A stretch of DNA of 63,904 bases, the filler included, from Collodictyon triciliatum (Eukaryota), in assembly GCA_043381765.1 (NCBI GenBank). It is 51 parts of 51 records of this genome, joined end to end, with 100 filler letters (N's around TTAATTAATTAA, not from the genome) between each part and the next. Parts side by side here need not be neighbours in the genome. Positions count along the whole stretch, not along the records: positions 17,622 to 18,778 come from JBHJMP010012052.1; positions 18,879 to 20,034 come from JBHJMP010012053.1; 49 more parts are not named here. The stretch is one strand, 5' to 3'. Positions 1,528 to 20,034 of this stretch are shown piece by piece. The notes beneath the pieces were generated by a model. That model saw only the letters and a list, made by a program, of their open reading frames with translations, searched no databases and had not been told where the DNA came from. The translations under genes and the position numbers were made by a program. How positions within the stretch are numbered: the first letter of the stretch is position 1; each line of letters starts with the position of its first letter.

Positions 1528-1960
1528 TTTTTTTTTTTTTATTCTTCCTTTCAATTTAGTGCGGAATGGTGGAGATGTTGACTTTGGTTCGCTAGCCATC
1601 ATTTGCATGGACGCTACTTGTTGGCAAGGTGGCGGAGGAGTAATCGGTAATCAGGAATTGCATCCTGCGGTTTGGCCTGTAGCCTGGGTCTTGTGCTTGG
1701 ATGAGAGATACAAGGCGAGGTTGAGTCTCTTTCTCAGCTTCTTTCCACATGTCTCTTCTCACGGGGTCGGAGTAATAGAGAACGTGCGGGTGGCGAAGGA
1801 AACTGTCGAGGAAAGAGATTTGTATGATGTCATCCAGTCTTTTTTTTTTTTTTTTTTTTTTTTTTCCCTTTTTTTTTTTTTTTTTTTTTTTTCCCCTTTA
1901 TTCGATTCAAAGATGATGTCATCCAGTCTATTATCAGGAATGGGTGGCTGGTTGTTGAGA
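1528..1960 (-). mobile_element. Non-LTR retrotransposon family B, 3' fragment with poly(A) tail
   Basis: Homologous to 44270-44605 and 59310-59624. Ends ...AAATTGAAAGGAAGAAT(A)13. Confidence 0.85.
1841..1912 (-). mobile_element. Family A micro-retroinsertion nested in a family B copy
   Basis: CTTTGAATCGAATAAAGGGG plus long A-tail, flanked by 17-bp TSD ATGATGTCATCCAGTCT (1824-1840 and 1913-1929). Confidence 0.9.
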
Positions 1961-7651: not shown

Positions 7652-8862
7652 GCATTTTTTTTTAAAAAGAATCACATGATAGGCGTAGTGATTGTCATTC
7701 ATGAAAGAAAACCATTAGCAGTTTTTGTTATAGCAAAGGTCTATACATCGATTCTTATTTTTTTGATTATAGAAAGTTGTCTTTTAACAATACAAAAATG
7801 ATTGAATGAGAAACAATGGGAGCCAAAGAATGGTGGAAGGCGATAAAAGAAGGTCATCAGATCAAGGTAACAATCAGGAAACGAGACCGACTGACCAGAA
7901 GTAATCTAGTAATAGCGTAATGAGGTTGAAGACAGCTTAATGGAACAAACAAGGCTGAGTGCACAATACATATTGTTGTAAGAAAAAGGGAAAAATATGA
8001 CCTGTAAAAAATGAAGACATAAATACACGAAAATAAAGAGATGAGTTTTTGATTATGAAAAAAATTGTGCTTTATGTGCAATCGTTATGGATATAATTTA
8101 CGCGAATAATAGTGCGGGGCTCTTTCTCTGGGGATAAGATCCACTTTACAGCTCATATTACTACAAGATTATCAGGCAGGAAAGCGATGCTTGCTCTGAT
8201 TGAACAAAAACATATCCTGTTACTATTGTAAGCAATAATAAGACAAAATAAACAAGAGTGGCAAGTGGATAGAGGACAACCTTGATATGTACCGTTCAAA
8301 TGAAGCAGCAAGACCAATACACAACTAATAATCTTTAAGCATCAAGGGCGTGTGCAACAACACCAATCTGTTATCTATGCATTACCAAAATAGTATTCAT
8401 AGTCCAATAAGATACTTCAAACGATTTATTATTCTGAGAGACTTAAGCATAGTACTTAAGTTTTTTTGGAAAAGGTTAACGTGGAAGCAAATTTGTGGGA
8501 TATCAAAGACAATGAGGAAAGAAAACTTTGCTTTTGTGAGTGTAGATATTGTGGTTCGTATTAAAGAAAAAAAAGAGTCGAAAATAAAAAATAACGAATG
8601 TGACATAGAGAAATGAAATTAATCTCATAAGAGACAGAGAAACACATAAACAGGGATGCAAATAATTTTCAATTAAATGAACGGGTTTACCTCTTCATGA
8701 AATATGTCACTAAATGTANNNNNNNNNNNNNNNNNNNNNNNNNNNNNNNNNNNNNNNNNNNNTTAATTAATTAANNNNNNNNNNNNNNNNNNNNNNNNNN
8801 NNNNNNNNNNNNNNNNNNACCGAATCGTGAGTACAACCACCTACTAATAAGACGGAGCGAGC

Positions 8863-8905
8863 TCTTTGAAACGAATAAATAATAATGATAATAATGATAA
8901 TAATG

Positions 8906-8964
<59 letters not shown>

Positions 8965-8970
8965 GGGGAA
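8863..8970 (+). mobile_element. Family A-like copy with internal (TAA)n expansion
   Basis: TCTTTGAAACGAATAAA-(TAA/TGA)n-AGGGGAA. The A core is split by a triplet microsatellite. Confidence 0.55.
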
Positions 8971-9079
8971 TAAGAAACCGATCGAGCCCAAGCCATCGAC
9001 TCACGTGCAACAAGATCAGTATGAATATAGTGTTCAGTATTAGTTGCTCTGATTCATTCATCGGGTTTTCTTTTTTTTT

Positions 9080-9977
9080 TCTTTCCTTTCTCTTCGGTCT
9101 CATTCAGCCTGTAAACGGATAAACCTCATAATAAAATGTTGTGACGAACTTGGTTTTATCCCTTTCAAGGCACAACACTTTTTATACAACGAAAGTGAAA
9201 CCATACATGTAGCTGTTTTTTGCACAGACAACCATCGAATTAAATCTGGATTGACAAAAGCAGGAGCTTGATGAATCCAAGAAACAACCTGAAAAATATA
9301 ATAGAATGATTAGTTTATATATTTAGTAAGATTAAAAATACTTAATAATCTCATTCTATTCCTATAATCAATTTATACTTTATTTTTCATTGATGTATGT
9401 ACTATCATAAGAATTCAAAAGTGACAAACAAGCCCTTGTCTTGGCCCAGACAGAACCCACCTTATAAACCTGCCACCAAACACGCATTCCAAAAAAGCAT
9501 ACTGTCCACACTTGCGGCGGTAATCATGTTGTTTGGGGCCGATATGTTGACTTTCAGCCGCAATAGATATACGGCCGTCCTTTCGAACCCGCCGAATCGG
9601 CTCTCATCCTTTCGTCTCAATTCTCTTGTATAAAAAACTTTGTGTGTTTGTTTGCCAAAATGTGCATATTTTGAGAGTCTTGGTAGATGCTTAATTTTAC
9701 ATAAATTGATTTTATGCAGTAATATATATTGACTAATTGACTAAAGTTTTATTAAAATTGAAAAATCGGTAGTTTTCAAAAGGAAAAAGTAAAACAAAGA
9801 CTTTCACATGAAGAAAAGAAAACGTCTTGAGTTTGAGAATATAAAGCCTGTAAAACCACACTATGGAAATGTGAAAACATCTCTAAAGTTGATTGTAAAG
9901 AATGCATATGACTATGACAAAACCAACAATACGGTTTTATTGTGTCATAATTTGGTTACAGACACTTATCTGTTTGC
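9080..9977 (+). mobile_element. Fanzor1-like element copy 1 (upstream module plus Fanzor N-terminus 9808-9977)
   Basis: Co-linear homology with 47995-48896 and 18420-18778. ORF MKKRKRLEF...NVKTSLKLIVKN...NNTVLLCHNLVTDTYLF. Confidence 0.75.
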
Positions 9978-16364: not shown

Positions 16365-17447
16365 AACCGCAGAGCAACAAATCGAAAGACCACTCCAAGG
16401 GAGATATGACTTTGCTTGGGAGGTTTATCGCACTCGCTTTGGAAATGCAAAGTTTGTGATGGCACCCATGGTTTGCCTTCTACTATGTACCCTTTTTTCC
16501 ACAAGTGTTCGAATATATTTCTAATCTACTATTTTTCTGTGATTGTCTTTATATTTAAATCCGTATTTCTCATAATCCAAAATAAATTGTCGCAGGTTGA
16601 CCAATCAGAGTTAGCGTTTCGTATTCTTGTGCGCGGTTATACACCCGACGTATTGTGCTACACGCCCATGCTGCATAGGTAAGTTAGTATTACAAAGTGA
16701 AAATTGTCATCTCTTCAACATCACTGTGTAGGAATATACGGCAAATGGTTTAATTGATAAATCTTTTTTTTCCTTTATTCGATTTAATTGATAAATCTTA
16801 ACTTAGCTATCATTTTTCGACCAACGAAAAGTATCGACAAGAGCATTTCACCACAACACTAGATGACCATCCGTTGATTGCTCAGGTATCAAGACAAATT
16901 AATTTGCTGTATTCTTTGTGAAACCTTGCATATAGGTAATGTCATTTTAATTAGCTGTGAGAGTTACACAAAATATAATGAAGAAACCCTCCGCTCTATA
17001 GTTTTGTGCAAATGACCCTGATACATTGGTCAATGCGTCCAAGTTTCTAGAGAGTAAAATTGATGCCATTGATTTGAATCTTGGATGTCCTCAAGGGATT
17101 GCTAGACGGGGTCATTATGGTGCATTTCTGATGGAAGAGCCTGACCTTGTCTACAACATAGGTTTTTTTTCTTTCTTTTTTATTGTTCTCATACGTCTTC
17201 AAAAATCTTCGTTATGGAATATACTTCCCTTTTTTTTTCTTGTTGATATTGAGATATTTTTTTTTATTCTTCCTTTCAATTTTGTGCAGGATGGTGCTTT
17301 TGTTGAGATATATAACCATAAATTTTCCTTTTAGTCTCCAACCTAGTGAAGCATTCCTCTGTTCCTGTTACATGCAAGTGTAGAATTTTCGATGATTGGG
17401 AGAAAACCAAGAAGTGGGTCCAAATGCTCGAAAGTACAGGAATTGTG
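16365..17447 (+). CDS. DUS1: tRNA-dihydrouridine synthase DUS1, 5 exons
   Basis: Exons 16365-16470, 16596-16678, 16807-16885, 17002-17161 and 17335-17447: [12 protein letters not shown]...YTPMLH...PLIAQ|FCAND...[20 protein letters not shown]...PVTCKCRI. Confidence 0.95.
16766..16782 (-). mobile_element. Family A micro-retroinsertion (17 bp) in DUS1 intron 2
   Basis: TTTTTTCCTTTATTCGA between a perfect 17-bp TSD TTTAATTGATAAATCTT (16749-16765 and 16783-16799). Confidence 0.88.
17258..17296 (-). mobile_element. Family B micro-retroinsertion in DUS1 intron 4
   Basis: T-tract followed by ATTCTTCCTTTCAATTTTGTGCAGGATGGTG, with a flanking TTGAGATAT duplication. Confidence 0.8.
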
Positions 17448-17621
17448 GTATGATTCACTTCGTAATTTTCTGTGAAAAAAAAAAAAGCAGCAATCAAAAT
17501 CGGCCTTCTACTATGTGACTTNNNNNNNNNNNNNNNNNNNNNNNNNNNNNNNNNNNNNNNNNNNNTTAATTAATTAANNNNNNNNNNNNNNNNNNNNNNN
17601 NNNNNNNNNNNNNNNNNNNNN

Positions 17622-18593
17622 TTTCTTTCCAAGCAATGATGACACCGCCAAGCCGTCTGTTTGTATCATCTATTTAAAAATGTAGTCTGTTTGATGAAAG
17701 ACCCTCTTCTTCATTTCAAAGAAGGTCATCCCATAGGGTCTCTTTGCATCCTGATATATTCTTCATTAATGATATTTTCATATAATACTAATAGATCTAT
17801 CAAACATCAATATCTAGAGTAATATGACATTGTATATTGTTCGTTCTTATATAGATTGCTTGAAACAGTTTAGTTCCAATGTCCTCAAAAAAATACGATT
17901 CATGTGAATCAGACATGGAATGTACTTATTTGGATTGACTTTGGCGTTATATTCGATACTTTTTACAATATCGCTGCGAATGATATGACGCAAATGCGTT
18001 GTAGTCCATTCTTTATATTATTCCGGTATTTCGAGCTTCTTGAAGATGGCTTTTTTTTAACTAACGTAACTCTGCCTTTTAATGCCTTCCGTAATATTCT
18101 CATCTTTAGGAACTGTTTGATTTATAAAGCTCAGTAATCTCTTTACAAATGCTCCTTAATGTTAATATGATAAACTGTTAACATTTGCTTCGCTAAACAC
18201 GGTAACACATGAGATAAACCAACCAACAGAAAGCGTTCTTATCAGGATAAAAGGAATCGAAAATCATAGAGATAAAAAAGTCATCATGGCGATTTTCATA
18301 TCTGGTTTTTTTGTTTTAATCTTACGGGTCTATCTTGTGAGACTATTCTGACTGTCTTTAAGCGTACAAAAAAACATTTCATCGATTGTTGGGAGTTGTT
18401 GTGAATTCAGTATGTAACATCTTGCAAACACATAAGTGTCGGTAACCAATTTATGACACAATAAAACTGTATTGTTGACTTTGTAATCGTAATCCGAATT
18501 CTTTACAATCGACTTTAGATTTGTTTTTACATTTCGACAGTGTGGTTTTACAGACCTTAGATTCCCAAACTCAAGATGTTTTCTTTTCTCCAT
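17622..18593 (-). pseudogene. Fanzor1-like protein, degraded N-terminal ~320 codons (REC/WED region up to just before RuvC-I)
   Basis: Pieced across stops and frameshifts: NVKTNLKSIVKN..VLLCHKLVTDTYVFARCYIL..LPTIDE; LSHVLPCLAKQMLTVYHINIKEH..KRLLSFIN; YNAKVNPNKYIPCLIHMN; KLFQAIYIRTNNIQCHITLD..CLIDL; FFEMKKRVF..DYIFK*MIQTDGLAVS. This is the Fanzor1 motif order as I recall it. Confidence 0.8.
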
Positions 18594-19737
18594 CTGAAAG
18601 TCTTTGTTTTACTTTTTCCTTGAGAAAACTACCAAGTTTTTAATTTTAATAAAACTTTAGTCAATCGGTCAATTTAATATATATATTGAACTGCACAAAA
18701 TCAATTATGTAAAATTAAGCATCTGCCAAGACCCTCAAAATGTGCGCTATGTAGAAAAACACACAAAGTTTTTTTTTCNNNNNNNNNNNNNNNNNNNNNN
18801 NNNNNNNNNNNNNNNNNNNNNNTTAATTAATTAANNNNNNNNNNNNNNNNNNNNNNNNNNNNNNNNNNNNNNNNNNNNGGATTATCCTTGTTAAAATGAT
18901 TTGATGATAATAAAACAGGCTCGGACCCAGCAGACTTTGCTCTCTTTGCCGTGTCGCTGGCCTTGACGTGCTTCGTGCTGTTCCGCATAGCCGTGTCAGG
19001 CTCCTCTGTGCTTGTGGATTACCCAGCGCTGAATCCAAAGTACCGCAGATAGACGCCCCAAGTCAACACCAGCACATGTCAACGGATAAACGCATTAACC
19101 ACCACTCTGCCACAAGCCACAGGCCACAGGCCAACACATAATCAAATACGCATCCGGCGCCCTTTGTAACCAAGTTCGTTACAATCTACATATAGCAACC
19201 AAATTGTCGAGCCTTCCATCTGTGGACATCACACGCGCTCCACAAACCCAGCTATTCTGCGAATGTTCAGCTTCAGGCAGCCGAATACACCAAATCAGCA
19301 ACACGAGCGTGCATACGGGAGACAGAATGTAATGTCCCCAGGGGTGGTGACAAGGAGAGACCCGTTACAAGATAAAAGTCTTTTGCGTTTGAGAGGGACA
19401 AGTGTAGACACATGTGTTTCTATCAAACATGATACTCAGCCTAATATACCTGGGCGAGCGTGAGGAGCTCAGAGACAGGCACAAACACATCAGGCAAGGA
19501 AAGCCACGCGCGAGTGGGGCGGTATCCGGCCTCGCAGCCACCACAGTGCTTAAGCGCCACCAAGAAGGCAATCATTTGCCCCTGCGTATATAAGCACACA
19601 CACACACACAAATGCGCATATGCCAATGGGTCGGCAGCGGAAACCTTCGACCACACGCACCTCCGATGAATCCAATCGCACCCGAAGCACAAGCATGGAC
19701 ACAAGCATAGAAACAAGCACAAGCCGCGCCACGAGGA

Positions 19738-19789
<52 letters not shown>

Positions 19790-19823
19790 GTGCTTACCGT
19801 ACCTTTTCCCTCTTCACCCACAG

Positions 19824-19973
19824 CCTGTCATGACACAACTTGTGGGACCTGGGGGCGATCGCGCCTGGCTGGATCCCAACCTCGCTGCGGTGGAAGCGGC
19901 GCCGCCCGTGAAGCCAAAGAACTTTCCTGGTGTGGAGGAGATCGCCTTCAACGTGGCAGAAGAGCGCAAACAG
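19824..19973 (+). CDS. Single 150-bp internal exon of an unknown GC-rich gene
   Basis: Polypyrimidine tract and CAG acceptor, GTACGC donor, open phase-0 frame PVMTQLVGPGG...EEIAFNVAEERKQ. Confidence 0.55.
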
Positions 19974-19979
19974 GTACGC

Positions 19980-20034
<55 letters not shown>

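What the first reader, a model, noticed from the sequence alone, without database searches (positions are those of the whole stretch)
17622..18778. Fanzor1-like RNA-guided nuclease family in this eukaryote (3 copies)
The whole contig decodes, through stops and frameshifts the ORF track misses, into Fanzor1-type motifs in the expected order, ending at IQTDGLAVS, which precedes RuvC-I. All three copies begin with a basic NLS-like M(K/E)KRK. Three diverged copies in 51 contigs imply a sizeable family. Two copies break at nearly the same base (9977, 48896), as expected if a collapsed higher-copy repeat lies beyond. RuvC, the omegaRNA and the right end are not in the window, so activity is unproven.
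Basis: partly seen in the sequence, partly recalled or inferred. Interest (0 to 1): 0.85.

Follow-up and report, generated by a model that had tools for sequence, protein, structure and literature searches.

The report
Decayed Fanzor1 nuclease gene fragments

Summary
The minus strand of contig 17622-18778 carries codons 1-324 of a Fanzor1-type gene (ATG at 18593) plus 185 nt of upstream sequence. Two other contigs carry only codons 1-56 and 1-59 plus about 740 nt of shared upstream DNA. The three copies are 83-85% identical to each other.

The read-through translation hits a 331-aa database protein (E 1e-55). That protein's 648-aa relative P0004 matches the solved Guillardia, Parasitella and Spizellomyces Fanzor1 structures by sequence (E 2e-28 to 4e-23) and by fold (TM 0.52-0.62). 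All 120 listed full-length relatives carry the Fanzor1 TDG motif, the DPG motif at RuvC-I and a Glu six residues before a CxxC zinc finger.

The window copy is a pseudogene. It needs about 9 frameshifts and has 5-6 in-frame stops. No contig in the window holds the RuvC half or the right end.

Most relatives lie in giant-virus contigs. There they sit in roughly 2.4-kb inverted-repeat elements with a sharply bounded, structured 3' end, and some carry a DDE_3 transposase.

Verdict: a new member of a known kind, of modest interest.

The parts
17622..18593 (-). Copy 1: pseudogenised codons 1-324 of a Fanzor1 gene (the REC lobe, WED-REC-WED). The contig end cuts it about 50 codons before the RuvC-I Asp.
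   Evidence: E 1e-55 to P0002; 56-58% identity to P0004/P0002 with 9 frameshifts and 5-6 stops
18330..18593 (-). The only intact stretch of copy 1: the first 87 codons, starting with the basic MEKRK.
17652..17660 (-). TDG motif within IQTDGLAVS (17640-17666), characteristic of the Fanzor1 WED domain.
   Evidence: invariant T312 D313 G314 in alignment A3; present in 120 of 120 relatives
18594..18778 (-). 185 nt upstream of the copy 1 ATG, homologous to the upstream DNA of copies 2 and 3.
9808..9977 (+). Copy 2: codons 1-56, open, cut by the contig end.
9065..9807 (+). Copy 2: about 740 nt of upstream repeat DNA shared with copy 3. No protein family found.
48720..48896 (+). Copy 3: codons 1-59, with an in-frame TAA at 48849-48851, cut by the contig end.
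47979..48719 (+). Copy 3: upstream repeat DNA shared with copy 2.

Best explanation
Contig 17622-18778 carries, on its minus strand, the front half of a decayed copy of a Fanzor1 gene together with 185 nt of its upstream DNA. Contigs 8819-9977 and 47745-48896 carry the first roughly 57 codons and about 740 nt of upstream DNA from two further copies of the same old repeat family.

Intact relatives are about 620-650-aa proteins. Their front half is the REC lobe (WED-REC-WED, with the TDG motif). Their back half is a split RuvC nuclease with a DPG motif, an alternative RuvC-II glutamate, a C4 zinc finger and an RD motif.

By homology to SpuFz1, GtFz1 and PpFz1, such a protein would bind an omega RNA transcribed from the 3' end of its own transposon. 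It would then cut double-stranded DNA that matches the guide next to a TAM. That mechanism is inferred for the family, not shown.

The copy in the window cannot do this, because its frame is broken about 15 times and the nuclease half is not present. What is shown: homology, motifs, pseudogene state, multi-copy state, and the terminal repeats and structured 3' ends of the viral relatives. What is inferred: RNA guidance, nuclear import through the basic N-terminus, and whether intact copies exist in this organism.
For: **Homology chain.**
- P0001 hits P0002 at E 9.7e-56 with 100% coverage.
- P0004 (648 aa) is 76% identical to P0002.
- P0004 hits GtFz1 9cer at 2.1e-28, PpFz1 9cf0 at 2.7e-24 and SpuFz1 8gkh at 3.7e-23. 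Its N-terminal residues 17-272 are aligned in those hits.

**Fold.** The top 7 PDB matches of the P0004 model are all Fanzor1 chains, at E 2.5e-18 to 7.5e-15 and TM 0.52-0.62. Cas12f follows at 5e-4 (TM 0.19) and Fanzor2 is at rank 15 (TM 0.16).

**Motifs.**
- Invariant in 24 of 24 aligned relatives: T312 D313 G314, D364 P365 G366, E555, C562, C565, C587, C590, R603, D604.
- Regex counts over the 120 listed relatives: TDG 120, DPG 120, E-x6-CxxC 120, full Bao-Jurka motif 109.

**Pseudogene state.** 9 frameshifts and 5-6 stops. All three stop codons occur in frame.

**Family size.** 70, 59 and 158 diverged contig pieces cover the stretch in three runs. Other copies carry indels at 4 of this copy's 9 frameshift sites. 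At the stop 17670-17672, all 14 contigs of run X4 read C>G at 17670, which gives Tyr.

**3' ends of the relatives.**
- 78 of 80 giant-virus loci have an intact ORF.
- Conservation runs to about +80 nt past the stop and then falls to zero.
- 72 of 78 end in ...AAAGGTGTAA.
- A matching left inverted repeat is present.
- The predicted 3' structure has 96.6% of cells paired, against 50-61% when slid, and 7 pairs with compensatory changes.
Against: - The window's own translation gives no direct hit. Pfam returned only a chance-level Ig_ADGRF3 match (E 0.019), and the PDB search returned nothing for P0001 or for the 87-aa ORF. The assignment therefore rests on a chain through P0002 and P0004.
- The local Pfam copy gives the full-length relatives only sub-threshold PF07282 hits: E 3.5e-4 to 0.57 in 5 of 6 tested, none in P0008.
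- The P0004 model is of moderate confidence (mean pLDDT 68.7, pTM 0.62).
- No catalytic half, omega RNA region or element end of this organism's family was seen.
- The viral terminal repeat is absent from the window.
- The 3' structure was predicted from the same alignment on which it was then counted.
- No RNA evidence exists for any member examined here.
Confidence: 0.9

Rival explanations
1. The contigs are not host DNA. They come from a giant virus, or a viral contaminant, carrying a live Fanzor1 element.
For: The family is overwhelmingly viral in public data. ESM Atlas clusters are 92-100% Viruses, mostly Nucleocytoviricota. IMG/VR holds 415 relatives. The lineage of P0004 and P0002 nests inside viral-contig sequences in the tree.
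Against: - Viral copies are intact in 78 of 80 loci, whereas this copy has about 15 disabling lesions and copy 3 has a stop.
- The three copies differ by 15-17%. The repeat is bordered by microsatellites in contigs whose G+C is 0.32-0.34, within the range of the other contigs.
- No viral terminal repeat or transposase remnant is present.
Confidence: 0.05
2. The gene is alive. The apparent stops and frameshifts are introns, or reflect a deviant genetic code.
For: Fanzor genes in eukaryotes can carry introns (Jiang et al. 2023, passage seen). Frame -2 can be read along the whole contig.
Against: - The frame changes are 1-2 nt steps inside continuously aligned protein blocks, with no inserted sequence between them.
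- The stops use TAA, TAG and TGA alike.
- One stop replaces a conserved Tyr two codons before IQTDG, and other copies in public runs read Tyr there.
Confidence: 0.02
3. The N-terminal domain here (DUF8286) belongs to a transposon protein that is not a Fanzor, and merely shares this domain with Fanzors.
For: Only the N-terminal half is in the window, and Pfam names the domain a DUF. Many database hits are short, 109-450 aa.
Against: - All 120 listed long relatives join this domain to a DPG / E-x6-CxxC nuclease half.
- The solved Fanzor1 structures align over the N-terminal part itself.
- The short hits examined read as fragments or frame-shifted ORFs of the same gene, for example P0190.
Confidence: 0.03

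Closest known systems
Solved Fanzor1 nucleases: SpuFz1 (8gkh, 9ceu-9cez), GtFz1 (9cer-9cet), PpFz1 (9cf0-9cf3)
   Same: The full-length relative P0004 matches them by sequence (E 4e-23 to 2e-28) and over the whole fold (TM 0.52-0.62). It has the same order of TDG, DPG, alternative Glu, C4 zinc finger and RD, and a similar size (648 aa against 638 aa for SpuFz1).
   Different: Identity in the structural alignment is only 17-19%. The window holds only a broken REC-lobe half. No RNA, TAM or cleavage data exist for this lineage.
Mariner/Tc1-borne Fanzor1 elements of large DNA viruses and Hydra (PGv-1, PUl-4, HMa-1; Bao and Jurka 2013, PMC3627910, passages read)
   Same: The viral relatives found here sit in inverted-repeat elements flanked by TA (37 of 40 end pairs). 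Two of them (L001, L003) carry a DDE_3 transposase of the Tc1/IS630 type. Most encode the Fanzor1 alone, like PUl-4.
   Different: Whether the TA is a target duplication or part of the repeat is not resolved. The ends of this organism's own elements are unknown.
SfAV-type non-autonomous Fanzor1 transposons, in which the terminal repeat forms part of the guide-RNA scaffold (Yoon et al. 2023, PMC10711439, passages read)
   Same: In the viral relatives the last 12 nt of the element (...AAAGGTGTAA, part of the terminal repeat) are predicted to pair with a stretch about 70 nt upstream. This echoes the published inclusion of the terminal repeat in the scaffold.
   Different: The structure here is a prediction on DNA alignments only. 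No small-RNA data were available.
Fanzor2 / IS607 TnpB / Cas12f
   Same: Split RuvC with a zinc finger. Fanzor2 shares the DPG motif and the alternative Glu.
   Different: The fold match is far weaker (TM 0.16-0.19, E 5e-4 or worse). The long REC lobe and the TDG motif are Fanzor1 features. The associated transposase is DDE_3, not an IS607 TnpA.

Membership tests
Fanzor1 | Sequence homology to experimentally characterised Fanzor1 proteins | tested here: met
   P0004 v the PDB: GtFz1 2.1e-28, PpFz1 2.7e-24, SpuFz1 3.7e-23. The window copy is linked to P0004 through P0002 (E 9.7e-56; 56-58% identity in the frameshift-aware alignment). Direct PDB searches with the window's own reading found nothing.
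Fanzor1 | TDG motif in the WED domain (Yoon et al. 2023) | tested here: met
   Present and unbroken in the window at 17652-17660. Present in 120 of 120 relatives. The definition was read.
Fanzor (1 and 2) | DPG at RuvC-I, plus the RuvC-II Glu six residues before the first CxxC (Ealt) | tested here: met
   Met in the relatives: DPG in 120 of 120 and E-x6-CxxC in 120 of 120, and invariant in A3. For the window's own copies this is not testable, because all three contigs end before this region.
Fanzor/TnpB (Bao and Jurka 2013) | D-X(125,275)-[TS][TS]-X-X-[C4 zinc finger]-X(5,50)-RD | tested here: met
   109 of 120 relatives match my regex, which allowed 8-40 residues between the two CxxC. The 11 misses were not examined further. 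This part is absent from the window.
Fanzor1 | Whole-protein fold like Fanzor1 rather than Fanzor2, TnpB or Cas12f | tested here: met
   AlphaFold model of P0004 (pLDDT 68.7). Ranks 1-7 are Fanzor1 chains at TM 0.52-0.62. Cas12f is at TM 0.19 and Fanzor2 at rank 15 with TM 0.16. The REC2 kinked-helix hallmark was not inspected on its own.
Fanzor1 | Carried by a eukaryotic-type transposon, not IS607 | tested here: inconclusive
   The viral relatives lie in inverted-repeat elements, and two carry a DDE_3 transposase. For the window's family only a roughly 740-nt shared upstream stretch is seen. It has no ends and no transposase.
Fanzor1 / OMEGA systems | Conserved, structured non-coding 3' end that yields the omega RNA and guide | tested here: inconclusive
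   The viral relatives show a sharp conservation boundary about 80 nt past the stop, and a predicted structure with covariation. There is no RNA evidence. The 3' end of this organism's family is not in the window.
Fanzor1 | Open reading frame able to make an active nuclease | tested here: not met
   Copy 1 has 9 frameshifts and 5-6 stops. Copy 3 has a TAA at codon 44. Copy 2 is open but only 56 codons are seen. This bears on activity of these copies, not on descent from the family.

The most novel reading that the evidence does not exclude
This eukaryote may carry a large, old, host-resident family that descends from a Mariner-type Fanzor1 element of giant viruses, which would be a case of virus-to-host transfer followed by amplification. 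Some members, like the intact 648-aa P0004, may still be active RNA-guided nucleases with their own ends and guide RNA, different from the viral ones.
Probability: 0.3. Interest if true: 0.45.

Novelty: new member of a known kind. Interest (0 to 1): 0.3.

Why it matters
Fanzor1 nucleases are compact eukaryotic RNA-guided DNA cutters that are used as genome editors, and new lineages are of practical interest. This finding adds one more host lineage. It also shows that its relatives form a very large giant-virus family whose element ends and predicted guide-RNA scaffold are cleanly defined, so those viral elements could be tested directly.

The window's own copies are dead fragments and teach little beyond presence. 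The nesting of the host lineage inside viral sequences fits the published idea that viruses spread Fanzors. It does not settle that idea.

Tried and rejected
- **Deviant genetic code:** rejected. TAA, TAG and TGA all occur in frame, and there are frameshifts as well.
- **Introns:** rejected.
- **Direct Pfam search of P0001:** only a chance-level hit.
- **Direct PDB searches** of P0001 and of the 87-aa ORF: nothing relevant.
- **Tc1-like string upstream of copies 2 and 3.** I thought it might be a transposase remnant. Six-frame Pfam scans found 0 families. tblastn with the viral DDE_3 transposases gave nothing better than E 1.4.
- **Viral terminal repeat in the window:** 0 matches.
- **Own-genome search:** no genome is held for this window.
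- **Earlier findings of the scan:** none by place or by sequence.
- **Metagenome scan with P0004:** a single distant locus, L081, at 21% identity.
- **Sequencing runs:** no RNA holder is listed. The raw-read run X5 laid 0 reads, which is no test.
- **Literature:** searches for DUF8286 or PF26935 found 0 papers.

Full report
**What the window is.** It is not one stretch of genome. It is 51 contigs of 1149-1177 nt, ordered by length and joined by N/TTAATTAATTAA spacers. The finding's coordinates are exactly one contig, 17622-18778 (G+C 0.32).

A neighbouring contig (16365-17521) carries part of a dihydrouridine synthase gene (Pfam Dus, E 3e-12). Its coding sequence stops at a GT and resumes after an AG, which fits a eukaryotic source. 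No whole genome is held for this window.

**The observation.**
- On the minus strand an ATG at 18593 opens an 87-codon ORF that begins MEKRK.
- Read on in that single frame, the contig gives 324 codons with 12 stops: 6 TAA, 3 TAG and 3 TGA. A reassigned stop codon therefore cannot explain them.
- A frameshift-aware alignment that I scripted against the two nearest database proteins recovers the whole 324 codons at 56% (P0004) and 58% (P0002) identity. It needs 9 shifts of 1-2 nt and crosses 5-6 stops.
- The shifts fall inside continuously aligned blocks, so they are not introns.
- The reading ends in ...MIQTDGLAVSSLLGKK at the contig edge.
- 972 nt are coding and 185 nt lie upstream of the ATG.

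tblastn with five relatives hits only three of the 51 contigs. Apart from this contig, they are:
- 9808-9977: 56 open codons, starting MKKRKR.
- 48720-48896: 59 codons, starting MKKRKH, with a TAA at codon 44.

All three copies share the upstream DNA. Copies 2 and 3 share about 740 nt of it. Pairwise identity is 83-85%. Copies 2 and 3 stop 7 alignment columns apart. No contig holds any part of the C-terminal half.

**What it is.** The read-through translation P0001 has no useful Pfam or PDB hit of its own. In the 5.8-billion-protein search, however, it finds P0002 (331 aa) at E 9.7e-56 over its full length.

A search for longer proteins with P0002 finds 632 at E <= 0.01 among 2020 candidates. 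All 120 listed are 593-660 aa and carry the precomputed family PF26935. The ESM Atlas names that family DUF8286.

P0004 (648 aa, 76% identical to P0002) matches three solved proteins by plain phmmer:
- Guillardia theta Fanzor1, E 2.1e-28
- Parasitella parasitica Fanzor1, E 2.7e-24
- Spizellomyces punctatus Fanzor1, E 3.7e-23

The aligned stretches include residues 17-272, which is the part present in the window. The TDG of P0004 aligns with TDG in both printed alignments (GtFz1 and PpFz1).

An AlphaFold model of P0004 built on 24 relatives (pLDDT 68.7, pTM 0.62) finds Fanzor1 chains at ranks 1-7 in the PDB (E 2.5e-18 to 7.5e-15, TM 0.52-0.62 over the whole length). Cas12f follows at E 5e-4 (TM 0.19), and mimivirus Fanzor2 is at rank 15 (TM 0.16).

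**Defining features.** I read passages of four papers.
- Bao and Jurka 2013 (PMC3627910) define the shared motif D-X(125,275)-[TS][TS]-X-X-[C4 zinc finger]-X(5,50)-RD.
- Yoon et al. 2023 (PMC10711439) give the Fanzor fingerprints as DPG at RuvC-I plus a glutamate six residues before the first CxxC. They also state that the Fanzor1 WED domain has a characteristic TDG motif.
- Saito et al. 2023 (PMC10432273) place SpuFz1 residues of about 21-345 in the WED and REC domains, and name D383, E541, N385 and D606 as coordinating the two Mg ions at the active site.
- Jiang et al. 2023 (PMC10530073) report that about 60% of Fanzor ORFs have a predicted nuclear localisation signal and that 21 of 22 tested N-terminal ones work. 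[quoted passage not shown]

In my alignment of 24 relatives these residues are invariant: T312 D313 G314, D364 P365 G366, E555, C562, C565, C587, C590, R603 and D604. Over the 120 listed relatives:

| Feature | Relatives with it |
|---|---|
| TDG | 120 of 120 |
| DPG | 120 of 120 |
| E-x6-CxxC | 120 of 120 |
| Full Bao-Jurka motif (my regex) | 109 of 120 |
| At least four K/R in the first 12 residues | 101 of 120 |

The window fragment therefore corresponds to the REC lobe.

The local Pfam copy gave the full-length proteins only sub-threshold PF07282 hits, in 5 of 6 tested.

**The copies are dead, and the family is large.** Copy 1 has about 15 disabling lesions and copy 3 has a stop. P0002 (331 aa) and P0003 (352 aa), the nearest database proteins, end soon after the TDG motif. 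The tail of P0003 does not match P0004 and looks to me like a shifted frame.

Laying public runs on the contig showed 70, 59 and 158 short contig pieces at 85-99% likeness that tile the whole stretch. The first two runs are freshwater metagenomes. The third is labelled with a coded organism and is of uncertain library type.

- Among the 12 indel rows shown, other copies carry indels at 4 of this copy's 9 frameshift sites (near 17724, 17807, 17887 and 18146).
- At the stop 17670-17672, all 14 contigs in the third run read Tyr, as the proteins do.
- Short database ORFs P0133 and P0190 are 65-75% identical to the window copy. P0190 begins in a shifted frame.

This supports a sizeable, old family and explains why the assembly breaks inside it. 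It says nothing about expression.

**Relatives and how the family is built.** The family is mostly viral in public data.
- ESM Atlas clusters are 92-100% Viruses, chiefly Nucleocytoviricota.
- IMG/VR holds 415 relatives among 542 pattern matches.
- The N-terminal half alone finds 1477 cluster representatives at E <= 0.001, of which 55 are at E <= 1e-30.

Of the 80 viral loci kept, 78 have an intact ORF (median 624 aa). Nucleotide conservation among 74 loci was counted after dropping pairs at 97% identity or more. It stays high through the last 200 nt of the ORF and for about 75-100 nt past the stop, then falls to zero.

- 72 of 78 loci end in ...TTTTAAATGnnnAAAGGTGTAA. In 45 of those 72 this lies 80-83 nt after the stop, with unrelated sequence beyond it.
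- The reverse complement, TTACACCTTTnnnCATTTAAAACGCC, lies upstream of the ATG in 32 of 78 loci by my reading of the list, mostly 405-448 nt upstream. Eight further short TTACACC matches in that list (40 of 78 loci in all) look like chance.
- 37 of 40 end pairs are flanked by TA on both sides, and 25 of 40 span 2352-2394 bp. The next base out is also conserved, so the TA may be a target duplication or part of the repeat.
- L001 and L003 are about 3.3 kb. Inside the repeats they carry a divergently oriented transposase of Pfam family DDE_3 (E 1e-13 and 9e-15, above the family threshold).

RNAalifold on 21 diverse 3' ends predicts a hairpin within the ORF end, and a helix that pairs the terminal AAAGGTGTAA with a stretch about 70 nt upstream. 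On that structure 96.6% of cells pair, against 50-61% when slid. Seven pairs have compensatory changes, and 0 of 500 shuffles reach the covariation score. The caveat is that the structure came from the same alignment.

These features match what is published for Fanzor1 elements, but they belong to the viral relatives. The window has no such repeat and no remnant of that transposase.

**Origin.** I built a FastTree tree of 26 rows. These were 136 rows reduced by dropping near-duplicates at 85% identity or more, so 110 rows were left out. The tree was rooted on the distant L081.

It places P0004 and P0002 on a long stem (0.75), as sister to a viral-contig group (L005, L003, L001, L002 and P0005) with local support of 99, inside a larger mixed clade at 97.

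This is compatible with transfer between giant viruses and this host lineage. It rests on a quick method, a very long outgroup branch, and viral bin labels that I did not check.

**Verdict.** The thing in hand is a truncated pseudogene of a known kind. The family is already in Pfam as DUF8286, and Fanzor1 genes in Mariner-type elements of viruses and animals were described in 2013.

Searches for DUF8286 or PF26935 found no paper.

Interest is modest. The viral elements, with clean ends and a predicted scaffold, are the more useful by-product.

Noticed in passing
window 16365-17521 (exons near 17026-17157 and 17340-17450): Part of a tRNA-dihydrouridine synthase gene (Pfam Dus, E 3e-12). The coding sequence is interrupted by what looks like a GT...AG intron, which fits a eukaryotic source.
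   Followed up: partly
whole window: The window is 51 length-sorted contigs joined by N/TTAATTAATTAA spacers. Most of the large repeat 'families' and long 'inverted repeats' reported by the repeat finder are spacer or microsatellite artefacts.
   Followed up: yes
window 1573-1843 and 44306-44576: A 271-nt pair, 89% complementary, lies on two different contigs (I3). It is probably another dispersed repeat family.
   Followed up: no
window 18879-20034: This contig has G+C 0.53, against 0.28-0.50 for the others, and holds (GA)n runs. It may be a different genomic compartment or another organism.
   Followed up: no
window 9065-9807 and 47979-48719: The roughly 740 nt shared upstream of copies 2 and 3 contains a string that looked to me like a Tc1 transposase motif. 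There is no Pfam hit in six frames and no match to the viral DDE_3 transposases. Its nature is unknown.
   Followed up: yes
L057 about 2234-2240; L023 just past its right end: L057 has a second right-end-like motif about 760 nt upstream of its Fanzor ORF. L023 repeats AAAAGGTGTAAAA immediately after its right end. These may be neighbouring or ORF-less 'ghost' elements.
   Followed up: no
proteins P0002, P0003, P0190: The nearest database proteins to the window copy are themselves truncated or frame-shifted ORFs. Only P0004 (648 aa) of this lineage looks intact.
   Followed up: partly
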